The notes beneath the pieces are model-generated. The model was given only the letters and a program-made list of their open reading frames with translations, was not told where the DNA came from and made no database searches. This document shows, piece after piece, positions 28,012 to 54,248 of a stretch of DNA of 64,000 bases (its first letter is position 1; each line of letters begins with the position of its first letter). The stretch is taken from NCBI RefSeq assembly GCF_030013595.1, contig NZ_CP122768.1, one strand, 5' to 3'. This DNA comes from Escherichia coli. GTDB taxonomy: Bacteria; Pseudomonadota; Gammaproteobacteria; Enterobacterales; Enterobacteriaceae. A program made the position numbers and the translations under genes.

Positions 28012-28027
28012 TACCCCGATCGGGGTA
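28012..28027 (+). promoter_or_regulatory. NarP/NarL 7-2-7 heptamer pair in napF promoter
   Basis: perfect palindrome TACCCCGATCGGGGTA about 115 bp upstream of napF start. Confidence 0.6.
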
Positions 28028-47561: not shown

Positions 47562-47849
47562 TCACTGACTGCAATTTTTCGATCCAGGGTATTTCCTGAA
47601 TGCCTTACCATTGGGCTGATGTAATCCCATCCCGGCATGTGCCCGGCTGATGGTTTCGCGCATTTCCCCGAAATTATCCTGCCTTGCTGGTGGGCGTGCT
47701 GCCTTGCGGATACATTCCGCGCGACGTTTTGCCGCCTGTTCCCGTGCCTTGTCATCATTCGCCAGCATGATGACCTCAGCCCACCGCGCCGCCGCTCTCC
47801 GGTACAGACCACGCGCTTCCAGTGCTTCCGCTTTGCTGTCGTGAATCAT
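47562..47849 (-). CDS. PerC-family transcriptional regulator-like protein
   Basis: 95 aa with AEALEARGLYRRAAARWAEV motif typical of PerC-like proteins on E. coli mobile elements. Confidence 0.6.
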   Translation of the reverse strand: MIHDSKAEALEARGLYRRAAARWAEVIMLANDDKAREQAAKRRAECIRKAARPPARQDNFGEMRETISRAHAGMGLHQPNGKAFRKYPGSKNCSQ

Positions 47850-48388
47850 GCGCCTGTTTTCTCCTTTGCTGCCCGGCGCTGACGTTTGCGCTTCTCATTC
47901 AGCGCCACCAGCCGCGTTTCTGCGTCCTGTTGTTCCTGTGGTGTCACCTCGCCGCACGGCTGGCCTTTCAGGTCGTAGCGTACCCCACCAGCCATTAAGG
48001 CGCGGTAATAGCGCGGACACTGCGCATAAGATGCCAGCGTCGCACGCAATGCCCCTGGACCGAATGCCAGCCCCCTGACGGCGAGATCCTGCATCAGGTC
48101 GTCGAATATCCCCACCTTAAGCGGCTTCGGTGCTTCCCGGCTGAATAATTCAGGCCACAACTCAGTGAGGCGGTTAACGCGCCTGCGGTTTTTGCGCTGG
48201 CGTTTGGTCATATGCCGCCACGGTGTCGCCCCTGTGGGCTTCTGCTGCGCTTTCTGGTTACCGGGCATCACTTTATGCGCCGATGTGGTTTTATCCTGCT
48301 CCTGCGCCGCCTGCGTCGTTTTCTGCGGCGTGCCGTAAATGCCTTTCGGTTTTCTGTTAATGGTCAGCTTAGTCATGCTTTGCCCCAT
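47846..48388 (-). CDS. ProQ/FinO-domain RNA-binding protein
   Basis: 180 aa; LTELWPELF...PKPLKVGIFDDL...YAQCPRYYRAL...RYDLKGQPCGEV closely resembles ProQ/FinO domain signature. Confidence 0.7.
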   Translation of the reverse strand: MGQSMTKLTINRKPKGIYGTPQKTTQAAQEQDKTTSAHKVMPGNQKAQQKPTGATPWRHMTKRQRKNRRRVNRLTELWPELFSREAPKPLKVGIFDDLMQDLAVRGLAFGPGALRATLASYAQCPRYYRALMAGGVRYDLKGQPCGEVTPQEQQDAETRLVALNEKRKRQRRAAKEKTGA

Positions 48389-48537
48389 CGTTTTTACTGG
48401 TTGCTACGTTGCCCAACGGCACTGACACAACATTCTGTTTTCATTTTTAACATTCCTGATTTTTTAATTCCTCACCTGCTGCACAGTGAAAATTTATGAA
48501 GTTAATAACAATATGATTTTAAATGTATTTTTAAGTA

Positions 48538-48858
48538 CTCACTTTTTAATCCTTATATATACGCAAAAGTGAGGTAAATAGTTAAGTTTTAGTTAATATC
48601 TTGCATGGTGTGTTTTTTAACCTACCTGTTATTTTTATTACCTCATTTCTATTAACTCACCATTCCTCACTTTTGTTCCTCACTTTTTATTATTCTTGTT
48701 CTGCTCCTCAGTCGTTTTCTTTATTGTTGTAATCTGTTGTTTTGCAATGTGTTTTTAACTCCTCACTTTTTGACCTATATACAGGTGAGAAAGTGAGGAG
48801 TGGCGTTGATTTTTTGTTAAATTACCCGCCATCCTCACTTTTGCTCCTCACTTTTTAC
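48538..48858. repeat. iteron array in AT-rich region (putative island replication origin)
   Basis: at least 8 copies of TCCTCACTTTT in both orientations directly after the replication gene stop. Confidence 0.75.
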
Positions 48859-50270
48859 AGTGGGCGCACATAATCACCGTCAATAGCGATTACGCCGTCG
48901 CTTTCCAGCTTGTACAGCCAGCGCCGGAAGTGTTTCATCTCATACCCCAGCTTTTTCATATCATCGCGGAGAAGGGCGATAGTGCACGCCTCCCCGTGTG
49001 CTGTTCGCGTTCTGATGCACTGCCATAGCGCAGCGTGATTTTCCGTCTTGTTCCCGGCCTCCTCGATGCGTTCCAGTTCAACAGGTGGGCGCGGCTTATC
49101 CACAACCACCAGCGACGTGATTAACTCCCCGTCAGTGTCGGTAAAAAGCTCCACCACGCGTAAATCATATGCAGCCTCTTTCAGTTCCTCCGCGTCCTTC
49201 ATTTTGGTGCAGGAGATAACCAGGGCTTCACTGTCCGCACCTTCACGGCGAATACGGTATTCAGCGTCCAGAGATGCACGAAATGCACTGGAACCACGCG
49301 CCCCTTTTGTTTCATCCTTGCCGGAATGGTGAACCACCAGTACCGTGGCCCCTGTGCGTCGTTTCAGTTCGTCACATCCACGGATAAACGCCCCCATATC
49401 CCGCGCGTCATTTTCATCATTACCGCCAAAGCAACGCGCCAGCGTATCCAGAATAATCATGCGTACCGGTTTACCCGTTTCCCGTTCAACCTGACGGGAA
49501 GCGATGACCATTTCATCAACATCAAGCGGGACCGCCGGAAAAATCGGGCGGTTTACCAGGTACAGATTTTTCACCCGTTCATCATTAACGATTTCCCATG
49601 CTTTGATACGACGAGGAACACCGATCCCGCCCTCACCAACGACATACATAACCGCACCATGTACAACCCTGCGACCTCCCCAGTGGCGACCAGTGGCAAC
49701 ATGACACGCCCAGGAACACGCGAGGAACGATTTATAGGAACCGCTCGCGCCGTATGTGCTGCACAACGAATTAGCCGGAATCACGCCCTTAACGACATAA
49801 TCAAGCTGTGTGTCGTATCCTGCAGATCCAATACTCATTGGTAGCGTGGTTTTTCGCTGGCTGTATTGCTCGTCAGTAAGTATTTCCCCGCGCTCTGCCT
49901 GTTCGCGGATCCGTTGCAGGTAGTCGTGCCAGTTCTCCAGCTTCTGGCTGTGCATTCCCTCAGGGTAATAATTCGCATCCCGTACACCTGCCGCCGCCAG
50001 TTTTTGCCCGATGGCATTAATATTTGACGGCTTGATGTGGCCTGCCTTGTACAGCCGGACACAATAGCGACCATCGTCGATAATTTTCAGGTCTGCCAGT
50101 TCGTCAAGCTGGCTGTCTCCCAGCCATACAGGCGGAACATTGTCGCCAGCAAGTCGCCCGTCCTGTTCCTGCCATTGTTTCGCGTGCGCCCAGGCATCAC
50201 TACCCGCAAAAATAATGACTTCGGTCATTTTGTCGTGTGGCTGTTTTTTTAAGTTCGGTGCCAGTTTCAT
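48855..50270 (-). CDS. replication initiator ATPase/helicase (RecA-fold, primase-associated type)
   Basis: 471 aa with Walker A GASGSYKS and Walker B-like RMIILDTL; followed by iterons. Confidence 0.7.
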   Translation of the reverse strand: MKLAPNLKKQPHDKMTEVIIFAGSDAWAHAKQWQEQDGRLAGDNVPPVWLGDSQLDELADLKIIDDGRYCVRLYKAGHIKPSNINAIGQKLAAAGVRDANYYPEGMHSQKLENWHDYLQRIREQAERGEILTDEQYSQRKTTLPMSIGSAGYDTQLDYVVKGVIPANSLCSTYGASGSYKSFLACSWACHVATGRHWGGRRVVHGAVMYVVGEGGIGVPRRIKAWEIVNDERVKNLYLVNRPIFPAVPLDVDEMVIASRQVERETGKPVRMIILDTLARCFGGNDENDARDMGAFIRGCDELKRRTGATVLVVHHSGKDETKGARGSSAFRASLDAEYRIRREGADSEALVISCTKMKDAEELKEAAYDLRVVELFTDTDGELITSLVVVDKPRPPVELERIEEAGNKTENHAALWQCIRTRTAHGEACTIALLRDDMKKLGYEMKHFRRWLYKLESDGVIAIDGDYVRPL

Positions 50271-51420: not shown

Positions 51421-51505
51421 AGGTGTAAGACACAATGTAAAATACAAGTGTCTTACACGTCAAGCCTTCAAAATAATTTTTTTTCGTGTATATTGTCTTA
51501 CACCA
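51421..51505. promoter_or_regulatory. operator cluster: three copies of GTGTAAGACAC / GTGTCTTACAC
   Basis: ggtgtaagacac (51421), gtgtcttacacg (51449), ttgtcttacacc (51493) between divergent island transcription units. Confidence 0.6.
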
Positions 51506-51524
51506 ACAACATAAGGAGTTAGAC

Positions 51525-51704
51525 ATGGCAACAGGTCCAAAGAATGCAAAATCACAATCTGTAACTGCACGTATTGCCCATGAAATTATTGAAGGCATGG
51601 AAAACGTGAAAGAAGAAGGCGAAAGTACAGGGCAGTTTATAAGTGCAGCCATGCGCGGCGAGATCAAACGCCGCCAGCGCCGCAAGGCCAAAGAGCAGGA
51701 ATAG
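51525..51704 (+). CDS. small DNA-binding regulator, ribbon-helix-helix-like (candidate island repressor)
   Basis: 59 aa from MATGPKN with RBS aaggag; SVTARIAHEIIEGM resembles an RHH beta-strand/helix; divergent from operon. Confidence 0.5.
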   Translation: MATGPKNAKSQSVTARIAHEIIEGMENVKEEGESTGQFISAAMRGEIKRRQRRKAKEQE

Positions 51705-51805
51705 CCCACCAGCAAGCCAGCACACTGATCACATTGCCAACCGGATGTAATCACGGCATAGTAATCATCTCTCTTGCGTTGGGGATAACGCGCAATTAGT
51801 GTTGA

Positions 51806-51836
51806 AGGGCCACCGTAGCGGGTGGCCTTTTCTTTG
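51806..51836 (+). terminator. rho-independent terminator
   Basis: ggccaccgtagcgggtggcc hairpin plus ttttcttt. Confidence 0.55.
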
Positions 51837-51986
51837 CCTGTTATCCGGCAATTGTGGCGCTTCGCCACACGGTTGATATAATTCCCCTGCACTGATCCAT
51901 TTTTTTCGCAGCAGGTTAATTGTTCGCAAGGGCGCTCCGGTAACGGGGCGCTTTTTGTTATGTTCATCGCGTTACGCCTCACACCA

Positions 51987-52193
51987 TTACGCAGCCGTTC
52001 CGCGCGCTTCTTCCTCGCGCTCTTTCAGCCAGGCCAGCACTTCATCTTCATACCAGCCAACACGACGCAGACCGATTTTGAATCCTTTCGGGAATTTTCC
52101 GGCGTTGATCATGTCCTGTAGCGAACTGTCTGCCTTGATGCGCAGAATATTTTTTACTTCCTGACGGGTAAGAATTTTTCTGATTACTTCCAT
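51987..52193 (-). CDS. alpA: AlpA-family phage regulatory protein (excisionase/activator-like)
   Basis: 68 aa; ...GKFPKGFKIGLRRVGWYEDEVLAWL matches the AlpA HTH signature. Confidence 0.75.
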   Translation of the reverse strand: MEVIRKILTRQEVKNILRIKADSSLQDMINAGKFPKGFKIGLRRVGWYEDEVLAWLKEREEEARGTAA

Positions 52194-52261
52194 CGTGTTT
52201 TACCTCATTAATCCGGCGTATTCCGGTGATAAATACGGTAAAACAGGGCAGGGCGGGAAAA

Positions 52262-52295
52262 ACAGTACCCACCGTTTTAAAACGGTACCCACTGT
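52262..52295. promoter_or_regulatory. palindrome ACCGTTTTAAAACGGT flanked by GTACCCAC repeats upstream of alpA
   Basis: perfect 16 bp palindrome 52271..52286 about 80 bp upstream of alpA start. Confidence 0.4.
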
Positions 52296-52325
52296 TTTTT
52301 ATCTCATTGATTTCGCTTTCTTTTT

Positions 52326-52358
52326 GCAAAAAAATAGCGACCGCAAGGGCCGCTATTG
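52326..52358 (-). terminator. terminator after the 80 aa ORF
   Basis: minus-strand hairpin atagcggcccttgcggtcgctat followed by T-run. Confidence 0.55.
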
Positions 52359-52361
52359 TGA

Positions 52362-52604
52362 TTACCGCTTCCACTTCTTAGGTCGCCCACCGCATTTAAG
52401 GCTGGTGGGTCTCAGCACCTTGTCGATGCTTTCAGCCAGATTTTTCGATGCGCCACGCGAGCGCAAAAAACTGACTACCTCGTGTTTTGTGGGGGCTGTT
52501 GATTTGTCTTCCGGATCGTACGTTGACCAGAATTCACGATTTGCCATTAAGGCCAACTGAAGACCTTCACCATAGGCAGGGGATACCTTTTCATTGAAAA
52601 ACAC
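52362..52604 (-). CDS. hypothetical small protein between int and alpA
   Basis: 80 aa ORF followed directly by a terminator; basic C-terminus. Confidence 0.4.
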   Translation of the reverse strand: MFFNEKVSPAYGEGLQLALMANREFWSTYDPEDKSTAPTKHEVVSFLRSRGASKNLAESIDKVLRPTSLKCGGRPKKWKR

Positions 52605-52720
52605 CTGGATAGCTCCTTGAATTTCATGATTTGGGTGACTCCTCTCTGTATTGGGTGGGTTGTGGCGATTATACGATGGTTTAGCATGGTTTGCATCGCT
52701 TTTACTGGTTTTTTGTACAG

Positions 52721-53962
52721 TTATACGGCACGGATACCCCTTTTACCACTGGCTATGGTCACTCCAGTTGCTGCGGCCTCTACAAATTCCCCCCACCAGC
52801 GCATAAGCACCACGCGCTTTTCCAGGTAGTTACTTCGGTTATATGCTCGCCTTACCTCGTTCGTGTCCACGTGTGCGAGTGCGGCCTCGATTACGTCCGG
52901 CTCGAATCCTTCCTCGTTCGCTGCTGTACTGAATATGGCGCGTAATCCGTGAGACACCAGCACACCAGCGTAACCCATCCGGCGTAATGCAGCGTTAGCG
53001 GTCTGGCTGCTCATTGGTAGCATTGGATTTTTAAGGCTGGGAAAAACATGTTCCCTGTGTGCGCTGATTGGCTTCATGGTTTCCAGTACAGCCATAGCCT
53101 GACCGCAAAGGGGGATCACATGGTCACGGCGCATCTTCATGCGTCCGGCTGGAATCGTCCAGGTTTCGGCATCGAGATCTATTTCTTCCCAGCGTGCGGC
53201 GGCTGCTTCGGCTGGGCGTGCTACGGTCAACAGTTGCCACTCGATCAGCAATCTGGTTTGCCGTTCTATGCTGGCGACCGATAAATCGTGCATTAGCTGC
53301 GGTAGCTGTTCCGGTCGGATGGTTGGCATGTGCTTTTTGGTGGGTGAGGGAAATGCCTTGCGGACGTTAGCAGCGGTGTTGATGTCAATCAGCCCACTGT
53401 TGGCGGCAAAATCCATCACTTCATTGATGCGCTGCAAAACGCGTTTCAGTGTTTCCAGGTTGCCGCGTGCTTTAATGGGGGTGAGTATCTCAACAAAGCG
53501 GCGAGCGGTGAGGGTATCTATTGGCGTGTTTCCGATGTACGGGAATACGTATTTTTCCAGGGATCGCCAGATATCCTTAATCGTGTTGTAAGCCAGATTC
53601 TGGCCTTTTTTCATCTCGTACCAGTCCGAGGCAACTTTTTCGAACGTGTTGCCCTTTTTCCGACTCTCTGCTTCACGTTTCCGGCGTTCGTGGTCCTGTG
53701 GGTCAACTCCCTTCGCTATGAGTGACCTGTATTCATTCCGTCGTTCTCTGGCATCGGACAGGGAAACATCATTCAGCGATCCGAGGCTGATGATAGTCCG
53801 TTTTTTATCTGCCGGGCGGTAGTACGTAAAACGCCAGATTTTTGATCCGGAGGGTTTCACCAGAAGAAATAATCCTCCGCCATCCTGCAGGGTGTATTCC
53901 TTTTCCCCTGGTCGTGCGTTTTTGATCTCCGTAATAGTTAGTGGGGTGGTTTTTCGTGCCAT
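52721..53962 (-). CDS. int: tyrosine-type site-specific integrase (P4-like)
   Basis: 413 aa; N-terminal arm-binding-like domain, C-terminal catalytic region with HGLRA...RRAYNRSNY; adjacent to tRNA. Confidence 0.9.
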   Translation of the reverse strand: MARKTTPLTITEIKNARPGEKEYTLQDGGGLFLLVKPSGSKIWRFTYYRPADKKRTIISLGSLNDVSLSDARERRNEYRSLIAKGVDPQDHERRKREAESRKKGNTFEKVASDWYEMKKGQNLAYNTIKDIWRSLEKYVFPYIGNTPIDTLTARRFVEILTPIKARGNLETLKRVLQRINEVMDFAANSGLIDINTAANVRKAFPSPTKKHMPTIRPEQLPQLMHDLSVASIERQTRLLIEWQLLTVARPAEAAAARWEEIDLDAETWTIPAGRMKMRRDHVIPLCGQAMAVLETMKPISAHREHVFPSLKNPMLPMSSQTANAALRRMGYAGVLVSHGLRAIFSTAANEEGFEPDVIEAALAHVDTNEVRRAYNRSNYLEKRVVLMRWWGEFVEAAATGVTIASGKRGIRAV

Positions 53963-53978
53963 GTTTTTTTACTCATCG

Positions 53979-54053
53979 GTAGCTATATGCCTGGTCGTAG
54001 CTATACGGCTTTAGCTACACGCTGGACCGTATAGCTAAACGTGTAGCTAAAAA
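53979..54053 (+). repeat. cluster of five GTAGCTA(T/A)A-type repeats (putative integrase arm sites), including the 25 bp copy at 54029..54053
   Basis: gtagctata, cgtagctatacgg, ttagctacacg, gtatagctaaacg, gtgtagctaaaaa. Confidence 0.6.
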
Positions 54054-54171
54054 ATCCGGTTATAACCCTATCTTACCGATTCAATCCGGCGACTGAAAAC
54101 AACAAAAAAGCCCGTTAATCAGTAAATTAACGGGCTTTCAATAGGTTACCGATGCTGTCCGATATTCGATT

Positions 54172-54248
54172 TGGTCGGCACGAGAGGATTTGAACCTCCG
54201 ACCCCCGACACCCCATGACGGTGCGCTACCAGGCTGCGCTACGTGCCG
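54172..54248 (-). tRNA. proL: tRNA-Pro (anticodon GGG)
   Basis: minus-strand 77 nt CGGCACGTAGCGCAGCCTGGTAGCGCACCGTCATGGGGTGTCGGGGGTCGGAGGTTCAAATCCTCTCGTGCCGACCA. Confidence 0.95.

What the first reader, a model, noticed from the sequence alone, without database searches (positions are those of the whole stretch)
52262..52295. Perfect 16 bp palindrome upstream of alpA
ACCGTTTTAAAACGGT flanked by GTACCCAC direct repeats sits about 80 bp upstream of the alpA start. It is a likely binding site for a host or helper-phage factor controlling island induction. It is not a LexA box.
Basis: seen in the sequence. Interest (0 to 1): 0.3.

Follow-up and report, generated by a model that had tools for sequence, protein, structure and literature searches.

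The report
Tandem operator upstream of alpA switch
A conserved pair of 20-bp protein-binding-type sites sits in front of alpA, the master switch gene of a phage-parasitic island in E. coli; it most likely gates the island's induction, but which protein binds it is still unknown.

Summary
The sequence is there as described: ACCGTTTTAAAACGGT at 52271-52286, with GTACCCAC on both sides, centred 85 nt before the alpA start. A perfect 16-bp palindrome alone is not rare; about one is expected per 64 kb and this window has five. The better description is two tandem 20-bp units (52259-78 and 52279-98, 18/20 identical). The element lies in a ~10-kb PICI-type satellite island at tRNA-Pro, between a terminator and alpA. 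Two island subfamilies have saturated synonymous sites and 35-50% identical flanking DNA. Even so, the arms of the alpA-proximal unit are invariant, and some relatives lack exactly one 20-bp unit. The motif occurs only in this module. It is absent from the other ~5,050 E. coli genomes, from phage lambda and from 50,697 phage records. It always accompanies a small upstream gene (orf80) from an unnamed, widespread family that sits between int and alpA. I conclude it is an island-private operator gating alpA transcription. The binder is unresolved: Orf80 is slightly favoured, and AlpA autoactivation is the main rival. A host or helper-phage factor is not supported. It is not a LexA box.

The parts
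52259..52278 (-). alpA-proximal 20-bp operator unit. In gene orientation it reads AAAACGGT-GGGT-ACTGTTTT.
   Evidence: The arms are invariant in the 16 aligned upstream variants (representatives of 25 distinct ones) and in every printed variant. Only spacer positions vary: GGGT, GAGT, GGGA, TGGT.
52279..52298 (-). Distal 20-bp operator unit. In gene orientation it reads AAAACAGT-GGGT-ACCGTTTT.
   Evidence: The arms vary on one side only in relatives and the spacer varies freely. The unit is precisely absent in VG35A2 (L009), L079/L175 and L184.
52271..52286 (.).
   Evidence: It is broken by T->A in subfamily 2 and absent from single-unit variants.
52333..52357 (-). Intrinsic terminator ending the int-orf80 transcript (stem-loop followed by T7 at 52326-52332).
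   Evidence: In subfamily 2 a different hairpin plus T-run sits at the same place, so structure is conserved but sequence is not.
52362..52604 (-). orf80, a small protein with an uncertain start; the conserved core is 52362-52565. It is a stand-alone copy of an unnamed ~60-aa domain ending in a basic GGRPKKWKR tail.
   Evidence: 396 homologs, mostly the C-terminus of 200-250-aa proteins. No Pfam, PHROG, NCBIfam or PDB family. dN 0.19 with saturated dS. AF2 pLDDT 86, three helices. It co-occurs with the operator in 53 of 53 loci.
51987..52193 (-). alpA, the master activator gene of the island (68 aa).
   Evidence: Role taken from PMC6092414 and PMC11773190.
52194..52251 (-). Second conserved block: the alpA leader and/or core promoter. 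It contains the CCGG-N6-CCGG hairpin (52213-52226), the SD GAGG (52203-52206) and a candidate -10 TACCGT (52235-52240).
   Evidence: Identity between subfamilies is 0.75-0.95. The block is homologous to the P4 vis leader and to leaders of distant alpA genes. PWM scan.
52196..52245 (-). Inverted repeat (arms 52196-52213 and 52228-52245) that would sequester the alpA SD if transcribed.
   Evidence: 93% of cells are paired and one compensatory pair separates the subfamilies.
52301..52329 (-). Weak promoter-like pair just upstream of the distal unit: TTGCAA at 52324-52329, 17 nt, TGAGAT at 52301-52306.
   Evidence: PWM scan. Subfamily 2 has a promoter-like pair at the same position (TTTATA-17-CAATAT). 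The consensus scan found no promoter at all.
52721..53962 (-). P4-type tyrosine integrase of the island.
54172..54248 (-). tRNA-Pro(GGG), the integration site of the island.

Best explanation
The feature is a bipartite DNA operator private to this island module. It consists of two tandem 20-bp sites, spaced two helical turns apart so they face the same side of the DNA. It lies between the int-orf80 terminator and alpA, and it gates transcription initiation of alpA, the master switch of a PICI-type phage satellite.

My favoured mechanism is that the binder is the island's own small Orf80 protein. Orf80 is made constitutively on the int transcript and is encoded immediately upstream. Two copies or dimers would occupy the two units and keep the weak alpA promoter shut. 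If the promoter is the TTGCAA-17-TGAGAT pair, the units cover about -4 to +36. Helper-phage infection would relieve this block, and AlpA positive feedback would then lock the island on.

Shown here: the anatomy, the sequence-level conservation, the unit copy-number variation, the privacy of the motif, and the strict linkage with orf80.

Inferred, not shown: that a protein binds at all, that the protein is Orf80, the sign of regulation, and the transcription start.
For: (1) Selection on sequence. alpA dS is about 1.0 and orf80 synonymous sites are saturated between the two subfamilies. Flanking intergenic DNA is 35-53% identical, but the operator is 72-90% identical. The proximal-unit arms are invariant in the 16 aligned upstream variants and in all variants printed. 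Changes in the distal unit are one-sided and not compensatory. The neighbouring terminator, by contrast, kept its structure and lost its sequence. This pattern fits protein recognition rather than RNA folding.

(2) The 20-bp unit is the module. At least two independent relatives have lost exactly one unit.

(3) The motif is private. It occurs only upstream of this alpA allele group, in 373 of 5,426 E. coli genomes. It is absent from 50,697 phage records and from lambda. In metagenomes it turns up only in the same alpA context or as chance-like hits. It has no second copy within the island.

(4) Link to Orf80.
- The operator is present in 53 of 53 loci that have orf80, and in 0 of 25 alpA loci that lack it, even though those AlpA proteins are 65-73% identical.
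- The order int -> orfX -> alpA holds in all 10 distinct distant contexts that retain DNA downstream.
- orf80 is under purifying selection.
- Its fold is a three-helix bundle with weak HTH or winged-helix-like matches, followed by a basic G-R-P tail.
- ACCCACC/GGTGGG and GGTACC cores recur in orfX-alpA spacers of distant islands whose AlpA proteins look very different by eye. They are not in the alpA loci lacking orfX that I read.

(5) A weak promoter-like pair sits at the same position in both subfamilies, right before the distal unit.

(6) The leader hairpin shows one compensatory pair. This suggests transcription starts upstream of 52246.
Against: - No binding data exist.
- orf80, the operator and the alpA allele are physically contiguous, so their co-occurrence may reflect common descent only.
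- The family-wide core motif was defined after looking at the data. It is absent from subfamily 2's distal unit, and the k-mer test was only suggestive: a 7-mer present in 5 loci arises in 11% of shuffles.
- The candidate promoter is weak, at 3.5-7 of about 17 bits, and the consensus scan found none. A weak promoter fits activation better than repression.
- Published work on other PICIs shows AlpA activates its own promoter.
- Locus L140 has a GTGGTTACCGT-like core without any orfX.
Confidence: 0.35

Rival explanations
1. AlpA autoactivation site. AlpA binds the two units, which would be centred about -40.5 and -60.5 from a start near 52228 (-10 TACCGT at 52235-52240, no -35 hexamer). It activates its own weak promoter, giving the positive feedback described for other PICIs. 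The helper phage supplies only the first trigger.
For: - AlpA activates PalpA in EcCICFT073, and a delta-alpA mutant of EcCIMP1 reaches lower reporter levels (PMC6092414 and PMC11773190).
- AlpA is a bona fide winged-helix DNA binder.
- No consensus sigma-70 promoter is present, as expected for an activator-dependent promoter.
- In P4 the homologous leader is preceded by an activator dyad at a similar distance: 64 nt from the hairpin, against 62 nt for the distal unit here.
- Other alpA alleles each carry their own upstream repeat arrays.
- All operator-bearing alleles share the motif KADS(S/T)LQ.
- L140 has a similar core without orfX.
Against: - The experimentally studied EcCICFT073 has a different alpA allele (62 aa) and a different upstream region, with 10-bp direct repeats and no dyad.
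- L134 AlpA is 73% identical with an almost identical recognition helix, yet it lacks the AAAAC dyads.
- Similar cores recur next to AlpA proteins that look very different by eye.
- No copy of the motif lies near the att site, which would be expected if AlpA also acts as the excisionase.
- Xis-type winged-helix proteins usually bind direct repeats (my own knowledge, not tested here).
Confidence: 0.28
2. One reading: the dyads are the docking site of a helper-phage-encoded or host transcription factor that switches alpA on during helper infection. This would resemble P2 Ogr or P4 delta acting at the P4 PLL promoter.
For: - Helper phages induce alpA transcription in Gram-negative PICIs through an unidentified factor, even without AlpA.
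- The alpA leader is homologous to the P4 vis leader, which follows the helper-activated PLL promoter (the role of PLL is from my own knowledge).
- The regulatory region upstream of a conserved alpA is swapped between lineages, as if tuned to different helpers.
Against: - The factor's own sites should exist in phage or host DNA, but nothing similar occurs outside the module in 5,426 E. coli genomes with their prophages, in 50,697 phage records or in lambda.
- The ~75 non-alpA matches in the viral collection lie mostly in low-GC, unrelated contigs, and their number matches my estimate of chance.
- There is no TGT-N12-ACA motif and no match to a host regulator consensus that I could recall.
Confidence: 0.12
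3. RNA-level element. The palindrome is transcribed and forms a hairpin ending in U5. It would act as a leader attenuator or as a second terminator that insulates alpA from int read-through. It might work together with the SD-sequestering hairpin downstream.
For: - The leader folds with a z-score of -2.66, and the palindrome forms a 10+7-bp hairpin.
- The terminator scan flagged 52270-52287.
- The conserved G/T asymmetry of the proximal unit would be a G-U wobble in the sense RNA.
- The downstream hairpin has one compensatory pair.
Against: - The arms are conserved in sequence with no compensatory changes, and variation in the distal arms breaks pairs.
- The stem is AU-rich and the U-run is part of the stem.
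- A strong canonical terminator already lies 35 nt upstream.
- No Rfam family matches.
Confidence: 0.1
4. There is no function: a chance palindrome or slipped-strand duplication carried along with the island.
For: 16-bp perfect palindromes are expected about once per 64 kb. Copy number varies between relatives.
Against: The arms are invariant across lineages with saturated synonymous divergence, while the surrounding DNA has randomised.
Confidence: 0.03

Closest known systems
Bacteriophage-satellite P4 late promoter PLL with the vis (alpA-homolog) leader
   Same: The regulator gene belongs to the same family and follows a homologous leader (small CCGG-type hairpin, ACGAGGTA SD, long-range pairing onto the SD). 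A dyad-symmetric element lies about 60 nt upstream of that hairpin. Icd-like genes lie downstream.
   Different: The P4 dyad is TGT-N12-ACA, a single copy bound by the helper's Ogr or P4 delta (my own knowledge). Here there are two tandem 8-N4-8 dyads of unrelated sequence. In P4 the region also holds ori and faces Psid. Here the ori is elsewhere, and the element follows int-orf80 and a terminator.
PalpA of the E. coli PICI EcCICFT073 (Fillol-Salom 2018, PMC6092414)
   Same: The island type and gene order are the same. alpA is the helper-induced, self-activating master switch, and its promoter region lies between int and alpA.
   Different: The alpA allele is different (62 aa). There is no orf80. 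The upstream DNA carries five 10-bp-spaced ACAAC-type direct repeats instead of dyads. No binding site has been defined there either.
SaPI Stl repressor and its operators (Gram-positive PICIs)
   Same: If Orf80 is the binder, the logic would match: an island-encoded repressor holds the island silent and the helper phage relieves it.
   Different: Stl is a divergently transcribed, large HTH repressor. No homology was seen here. Repression by Orf80 is not shown. Gram-negative PICIs are reported to rely on an activator.
Lambda-type tandem operators (OR/OL)
   Same: They are adjacent dyad-symmetric sites of unequal conservation, spaced by whole helical turns, at the promoter of a switch gene.
   Different: Lambda has 17-bp sites in three copies, with a known CI/Cro binder. 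Here the sites are 20 bp in one or two copies, with unrelated sequence and an unknown binder.

Membership tests
Gram-negative PICI (phage-inducible chromosomal island) | Integrase at one end, next to a specific att site, pointing inward | tested here: met
   P4-type int at 52721-53962 lies next to tRNA-Pro at 54172-54248. The same site is used in relatives.
Gram-negative PICI (phage-inducible chromosomal island) | alpA downstream of int in the same orientation | tested here: met
   alpA at 51987-52193 is on the minus strand and matches PF05930 with 33.3 bits against a cut-off of 21.
Gram-negative PICI (phage-inducible chromosomal island) | Replication module (primase or helicase) followed by an ori | tested here: met
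   An AAA_25 RepA-type helicase lies at 48855-50270. TCCTCACTTTT-type iterons (4 to about 6 copies) lie just downstream at 48530-48857.
Gram-negative PICI (phage-inducible chromosomal island) | Induction, excision and packaging depend on a helper phage | not testable with these tools
   This needs experiments. Only the gene content fits: a TerS-like protein, PerC, and capsid or protease-like proteins.
LexA (SOS) box | CTGT-N8-ACAG dyad | tested here: not met
   Reading 52194-52330 on both strands shows ACAG...CTGT in the wrong order and spacing.
P2 Ogr / P4 delta-dependent late promoter | TGT-N12-ACA dyad centred near -55 | tested here: not met
   P4 PLL has TGTAAGACAGCCTGAACA. No TGT-N12-ACA occurs in 52194-52330.
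P2 Ogr / P4 delta-dependent late promoter | Leader of the vis/alpA gene homologous to the P4 leader | tested here: met
   Both have the CCGG hairpin, TTAACGAGGTA and CGATG.
Intrinsic (rho-independent) terminator | GC-rich stem-loop followed by a free U-run, with structure rather than sequence conserved | tested here: not met
   The stem is AU-rich and the U-run is paired. The arms are conserved in sequence without covariation. The true terminator at 52333-52357 behaves the opposite way.
Tandem dyad operator for a dimeric DNA-binding protein | Dyad symmetry within each site | tested here: met
   Each unit is 8-N4-8 with 7 of 8 arm positions symmetric.
Tandem dyad operator for a dimeric DNA-binding protein | Sites spaced by whole helical turns and conserved under selection | tested here: met
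   The spacing is 20 bp in all two-unit variants, and the arms are conserved despite dS of about 1.
Tandem dyad operator for a dimeric DNA-binding protein | Overlap with or defined distance to a mapped promoter, and a demonstrated cognate protein | not testable with these tools
   No TSS data are available. There are two incompatible promoter candidates. No binding assay was possible.
Pseudomonas aeruginosa AlpA antiterminator system (name collision) | Q-like AlpA protein of more than 140 aa and an ABE GGGACG between -35 and -10 | tested here: not met
   The protein here has 68 aa and the PF05930 fold. GGGACG/CGTCCC is absent from 52194-52330.

The most novel reading that the evidence does not exclude
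The operator and Orf80 would together form the missing 'gatekeeper' of many Gram-negative PICI and P4-like islands. Orf80 belongs to an unnamed family of about 400 detected members that always sits between int and alpA. In this reading it is an island-encoded DNA-binding protein that holds the alpA promoter shut through GGTGGGTA-type cores flanked by A/T tracts, and the helper phage's still-unknown inducer counteracts it. That would be the functional counterpart of SaPI Stl, in a group of satellites currently thought to lack a repressor.
Probability: 0.2. Interest if true: 0.75.

Novelty: new member of a known kind. Interest (0 to 1): 0.42.

Why it matters
How helper phages switch on Gram-negative PICIs has been open since 2018. 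alpA is known to be induced, but neither the inducer nor any cis element has been defined. This work gives three practical handles for the tRNA-Pro family, which is present in about 7% of complete E. coli genomes:
- a precisely bounded, selection-validated 40-bp element;
- natural one-unit variants;
- a candidate partner protein.

The element can serve directly as bait for pull-downs, as a target for mutagenesis, and as a marker for this regulatory module. If Orf80 is the binder, a widespread unnamed protein family gains a function.

Tried and rejected
- The genome-contig scan with AlpA returned only four unrelated distant loci. The word-indexed protein search reached no further than about 67% identity.
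- The viral-collection scan for the 8-N4-8 pattern gave about 75 non-alpA matches. They are mostly in low-GC jumbo-phage or unrelated contigs, and their number is close to my estimate for chance. The enterobacterial-GC ones (L010, L085, L101) carry TTGACA as spacer in front of capsid genes and look unrelated.
- Rfam shows nothing in the alpA leader and no P4 CI-like RNA.
- P. aeruginosa AlpA and its ABE is a different protein family with the same name.
- The divergent YlcI/YnfO-like gene (51486-51704) was rejected as binder because its presence does not track the operator.
- An ori role was rejected because iterons lie next to the helicase gene.
- An integrase arm-site role was rejected because the arm repeats near the att site are TAGCTAYA.
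- CP4-57 yfjH is on the opposite strand and was not pursued.
- EcCIMP1 is a different island, at tRNA-Thr.
- Nissle's island at roxA has the operator, but CFT073's EcCICFT073 at the same site does not.
- The profile scan with the broad orfX alignment failed. The WPWG subgroup added no new loci.
- Searches for the PDB entry 8C3T and for P4 Vis binding sites found no usable paper.

Full report
**Observation**

The + strand reads AAAAACAGTACCCACCGTTTTAAAACGGTACCCACTGTTTTT at 52258-52299.
- The 16-bp perfect palindrome is at 52271-52286.
- The GTACCCAC copies are at 52265-72 and 52285-92.
- alpA (68 aa, PF05930) starts at 52193 on the minus strand, so the palindrome centre is 85 nt upstream.

The palindrome alone is not statistically special. 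The window holds five perfect palindromes of >=16 bp, and 74% of Markov simulations contain one.

The repeat finder shows a larger structure:
- arms of 22 nt at 82% complementarity;
- two tandem 20-mers (52259-78 and 52279-98) with 18 of 20 positions identical.

Each 20-mer is an 8-N4-8 dyad, AAAACRGT-N4-ACYGTTTT. That pattern occurs exactly twice in 64 kb. Allowing up to 3 mismatches gives 6 matches against 0.89 expected.

**Context**

The element lies in a ~10-kb island inserted at tRNA-Pro(GGG), between yejM and narP. Genes run on the minus strand in this order:
- a P4-type integrase;
- a small ORF (orf80), followed by a canonical intrinsic terminator at 52333-52357;
- the element itself, then alpA;
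- Icd-like remnants;
- a DUF4222 protein and a RepA-type helicase, followed by iterons;
- ProQ/FinO-like and PerC-like proteins;
- protease and scaffold-like proteins;
- a TerS-like protein.

This is the four-zone layout of Gram-negative PICIs (PMC6092414, PMC10111431), with P4-like touches.

**Comparative evidence**

Related modules occur in 373 of 5,426 complete E. coli genomes and in many IMG/VR and metagenome contigs. I extracted 25 distinct upstream variants falling into two main subfamilies.

Between the subfamilies:
- alpA has dS of about 1.0 and dN of 0.14-0.20;
- the orf80 core has saturated synonymous sites and dN of 0.19.

Neutral DNA should therefore be randomised. The intergenic DNA is indeed only 35-53% identical, and the terminator has been replaced by a different hairpin. 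Two islands of conservation remain:
- the operator, at 72-90% identity;
- a 58-nt block just before the ATG, at 75-95% identity.

Within the operator:
- the arms of the alpA-proximal unit are invariant, and only spacer positions vary;
- the distal unit shows one-sided arm changes and a free spacer;
- the central T->A change in subfamily 2 destroys the 'perfect' palindrome;
- at least two independent lineages (VG35A2; L079/L175 and L184) lack exactly one 20-bp unit.

Sequence-level conservation without compensatory change, next to a terminator that kept only its structure, argues for protein recognition of DNA rather than an RNA hairpin.

**Who binds?**

The motif is private to the module.
- BLAST of the 46-nt element finds the same 373 genomes and nothing else, despite thousands of prophages in that collection.
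- It finds no significant match in 50,697 phage records.
- Lambda has only a chance-level 3-mismatch hit.
- Of 42 exact metagenome matches to the proximal unit, 33 lie next to an AlpA homolog (29 of them with orf80 as well), and 9 are isolated hits in unrelated contigs.
- The island has no second copy, including near the att site.

This weakens the host or helper-factor reading and points to an island-encoded binder. There are two candidates.

*AlpA.* It activates its own promoter in EcCICFT073 and EcCIMP1. However:
- EcCICFT073 turned out to carry a different allele and a different upstream region, with direct 10-bp repeats;
- AlpA proteins 65-73% identical to this one, with near-identical recognition helices, lack the dyads.

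*Orf80.*
- The operator is present in 53 of 53 loci with orf80, and in 0 of 25 alpA loci without it. The three parts are contiguous, so linkage confounds this result.
- Orf80 is a stand-alone copy of a ~60-aa domain (FWSTYDPxDxxTAPxK...LRP...GGRPKK). The domain was found in 396 proteins, mostly at the C-terminus of 200-250-aa proteins.
- The family is absent from Pfam, PHROGs, NCBIfam and PDB sequences.
- In all ten distinct distant contexts that retained downstream DNA, the order is int -> orfX -> alpA.
- In distant islands whose AlpA proteins look very different by eye, the orfX-alpA spacer again contains GGTGGG/ACCCACC and GGTACC cores (L134, L267, L269, L270, L372, L375).
The k-mer test is only suggestive, because the motif was defined post hoc.

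I therefore slightly favour Orf80 (0.35) over AlpA (0.28).

**Sign of regulation and promoter**

No consensus sigma-70 promoter exists in 51800-52800. A PWM scan gives two weak candidates.
- TTGCAA-17-TGAGAT sits just upstream of the distal unit. Subfamily 2 has TTTATA-17-CAATAT at the same position. This places the units at about -4 to +36, which is a repressor geometry.
- A -10 TACCGT at 52235-52240 places the unit centres at about -40.5 and -60.5, which is an activator geometry.

The leader is homologous to the P4 vis leader. There, from my own knowledge, the helper-activated PLL promoter has a TGT-N12-ACA dyad at -55. That dyad is 64 nt from the conserved hairpin, against 62 nt for the distal unit here.

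An inverted repeat covering the SD shows one compensatory pair between subfamilies. This hints that transcription starts upstream of 52246 and so favours the first candidate. None of this is decisive, and TSS mapping is needed.

**Comparison with known systems and novelty**

The element works like a classical tandem operator and sits where P4 has its late-promoter dyad. It is not a LexA box, not an Ogr/delta site, not the P. aeruginosa ABE and not a terminator (see the membership tests). No paper in the searchable library defines a cis element or inducer for alpA in Gram-negative PICIs.

I rate it a new member of a known kind. Interest is moderate, because it makes an open question experimentally approachable. 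It would rise substantially if Orf80-family proteins prove to be the missing PICI gatekeepers.

Noticed in passing
window 48530-48857: There are 4 to about 6 TCCTCACTTTT-type iterons in the 466-nt gap downstream of the RepA-type helicase gene. This is probably the island's replication origin.
   Followed up: partly
window 52196-52245: An 18-nt inverted repeat would lock the alpA Shine-Dalgarno into a hairpin. One compensatory base-pair change separates the island subfamilies, and the P4 vis leader has an analogous GCUACC...GGUAGC pairing. This may be a translational control layer.
   Followed up: partly
window 52362-52604 (orf80); loci L213, L267-L271, L373, L375: orf80 belongs to an unnamed domain family (396 hits; no Pfam, PHROG, NCBIfam or PDB match) that is consistently encoded between int and alpA. 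Full-length members (200-250 aa) have an extra, confidently folded N-terminal domain (AF2 pLDDT about 95) joined by a disordered linker.
   Followed up: partly
window 53963-54171: Five copies of TAGCTA(T/C)A lie between tRNA-Pro and int. They are probably integrase arm-type sites. I found no direct repeat of >=12 nt of the tRNA end at the far side of the island, so the left boundary is unmapped.
   Followed up: partly
window 51486-51704 (+) and 51928-51955: The only divergently oriented island gene encodes a YlcI/YnfO-family protein (NF041551). A plus-strand terminator follows it, just past the alpA stop. Its presence varies among related islands and does not track the operator.
   Followed up: partly
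L136:2740-3000; L211 (CFT073):1488-1552; L138:2740-2800: Other alpA alleles carry their own upstream repeat arrays: six AAAACTTCCA repeats, five ACAAC-type repeats at 10-bp spacing (EcCICFT073), and TTGCAC x5. The regulatory region before alpA seems to be swapped as a cassette.
   Followed up: no
window 47562-48388: The island encodes a PerC-family activator and a ProQ/FinO-family RNA-binding protein side by side. Either could affect host gene expression.
   Followed up: no
window 28012-28027, 38296-38313, 40914-40929, 41189-41204: There are four other perfect palindromes of 16-18 bp in the window, in the chromosomal nap/ccm-narP region. They were not examined.
   Followed up: no
L006 (Nissle 1917) vs L211 (CFT073), roxA-pepT locus: Two closely related strains carry different PICIs at the same site. 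Nissle has the orf80 + operator + 68-aa alpA module with a truncated int. CFT073 has a 62-aa alpA allele without orf80.
   Followed up: partly
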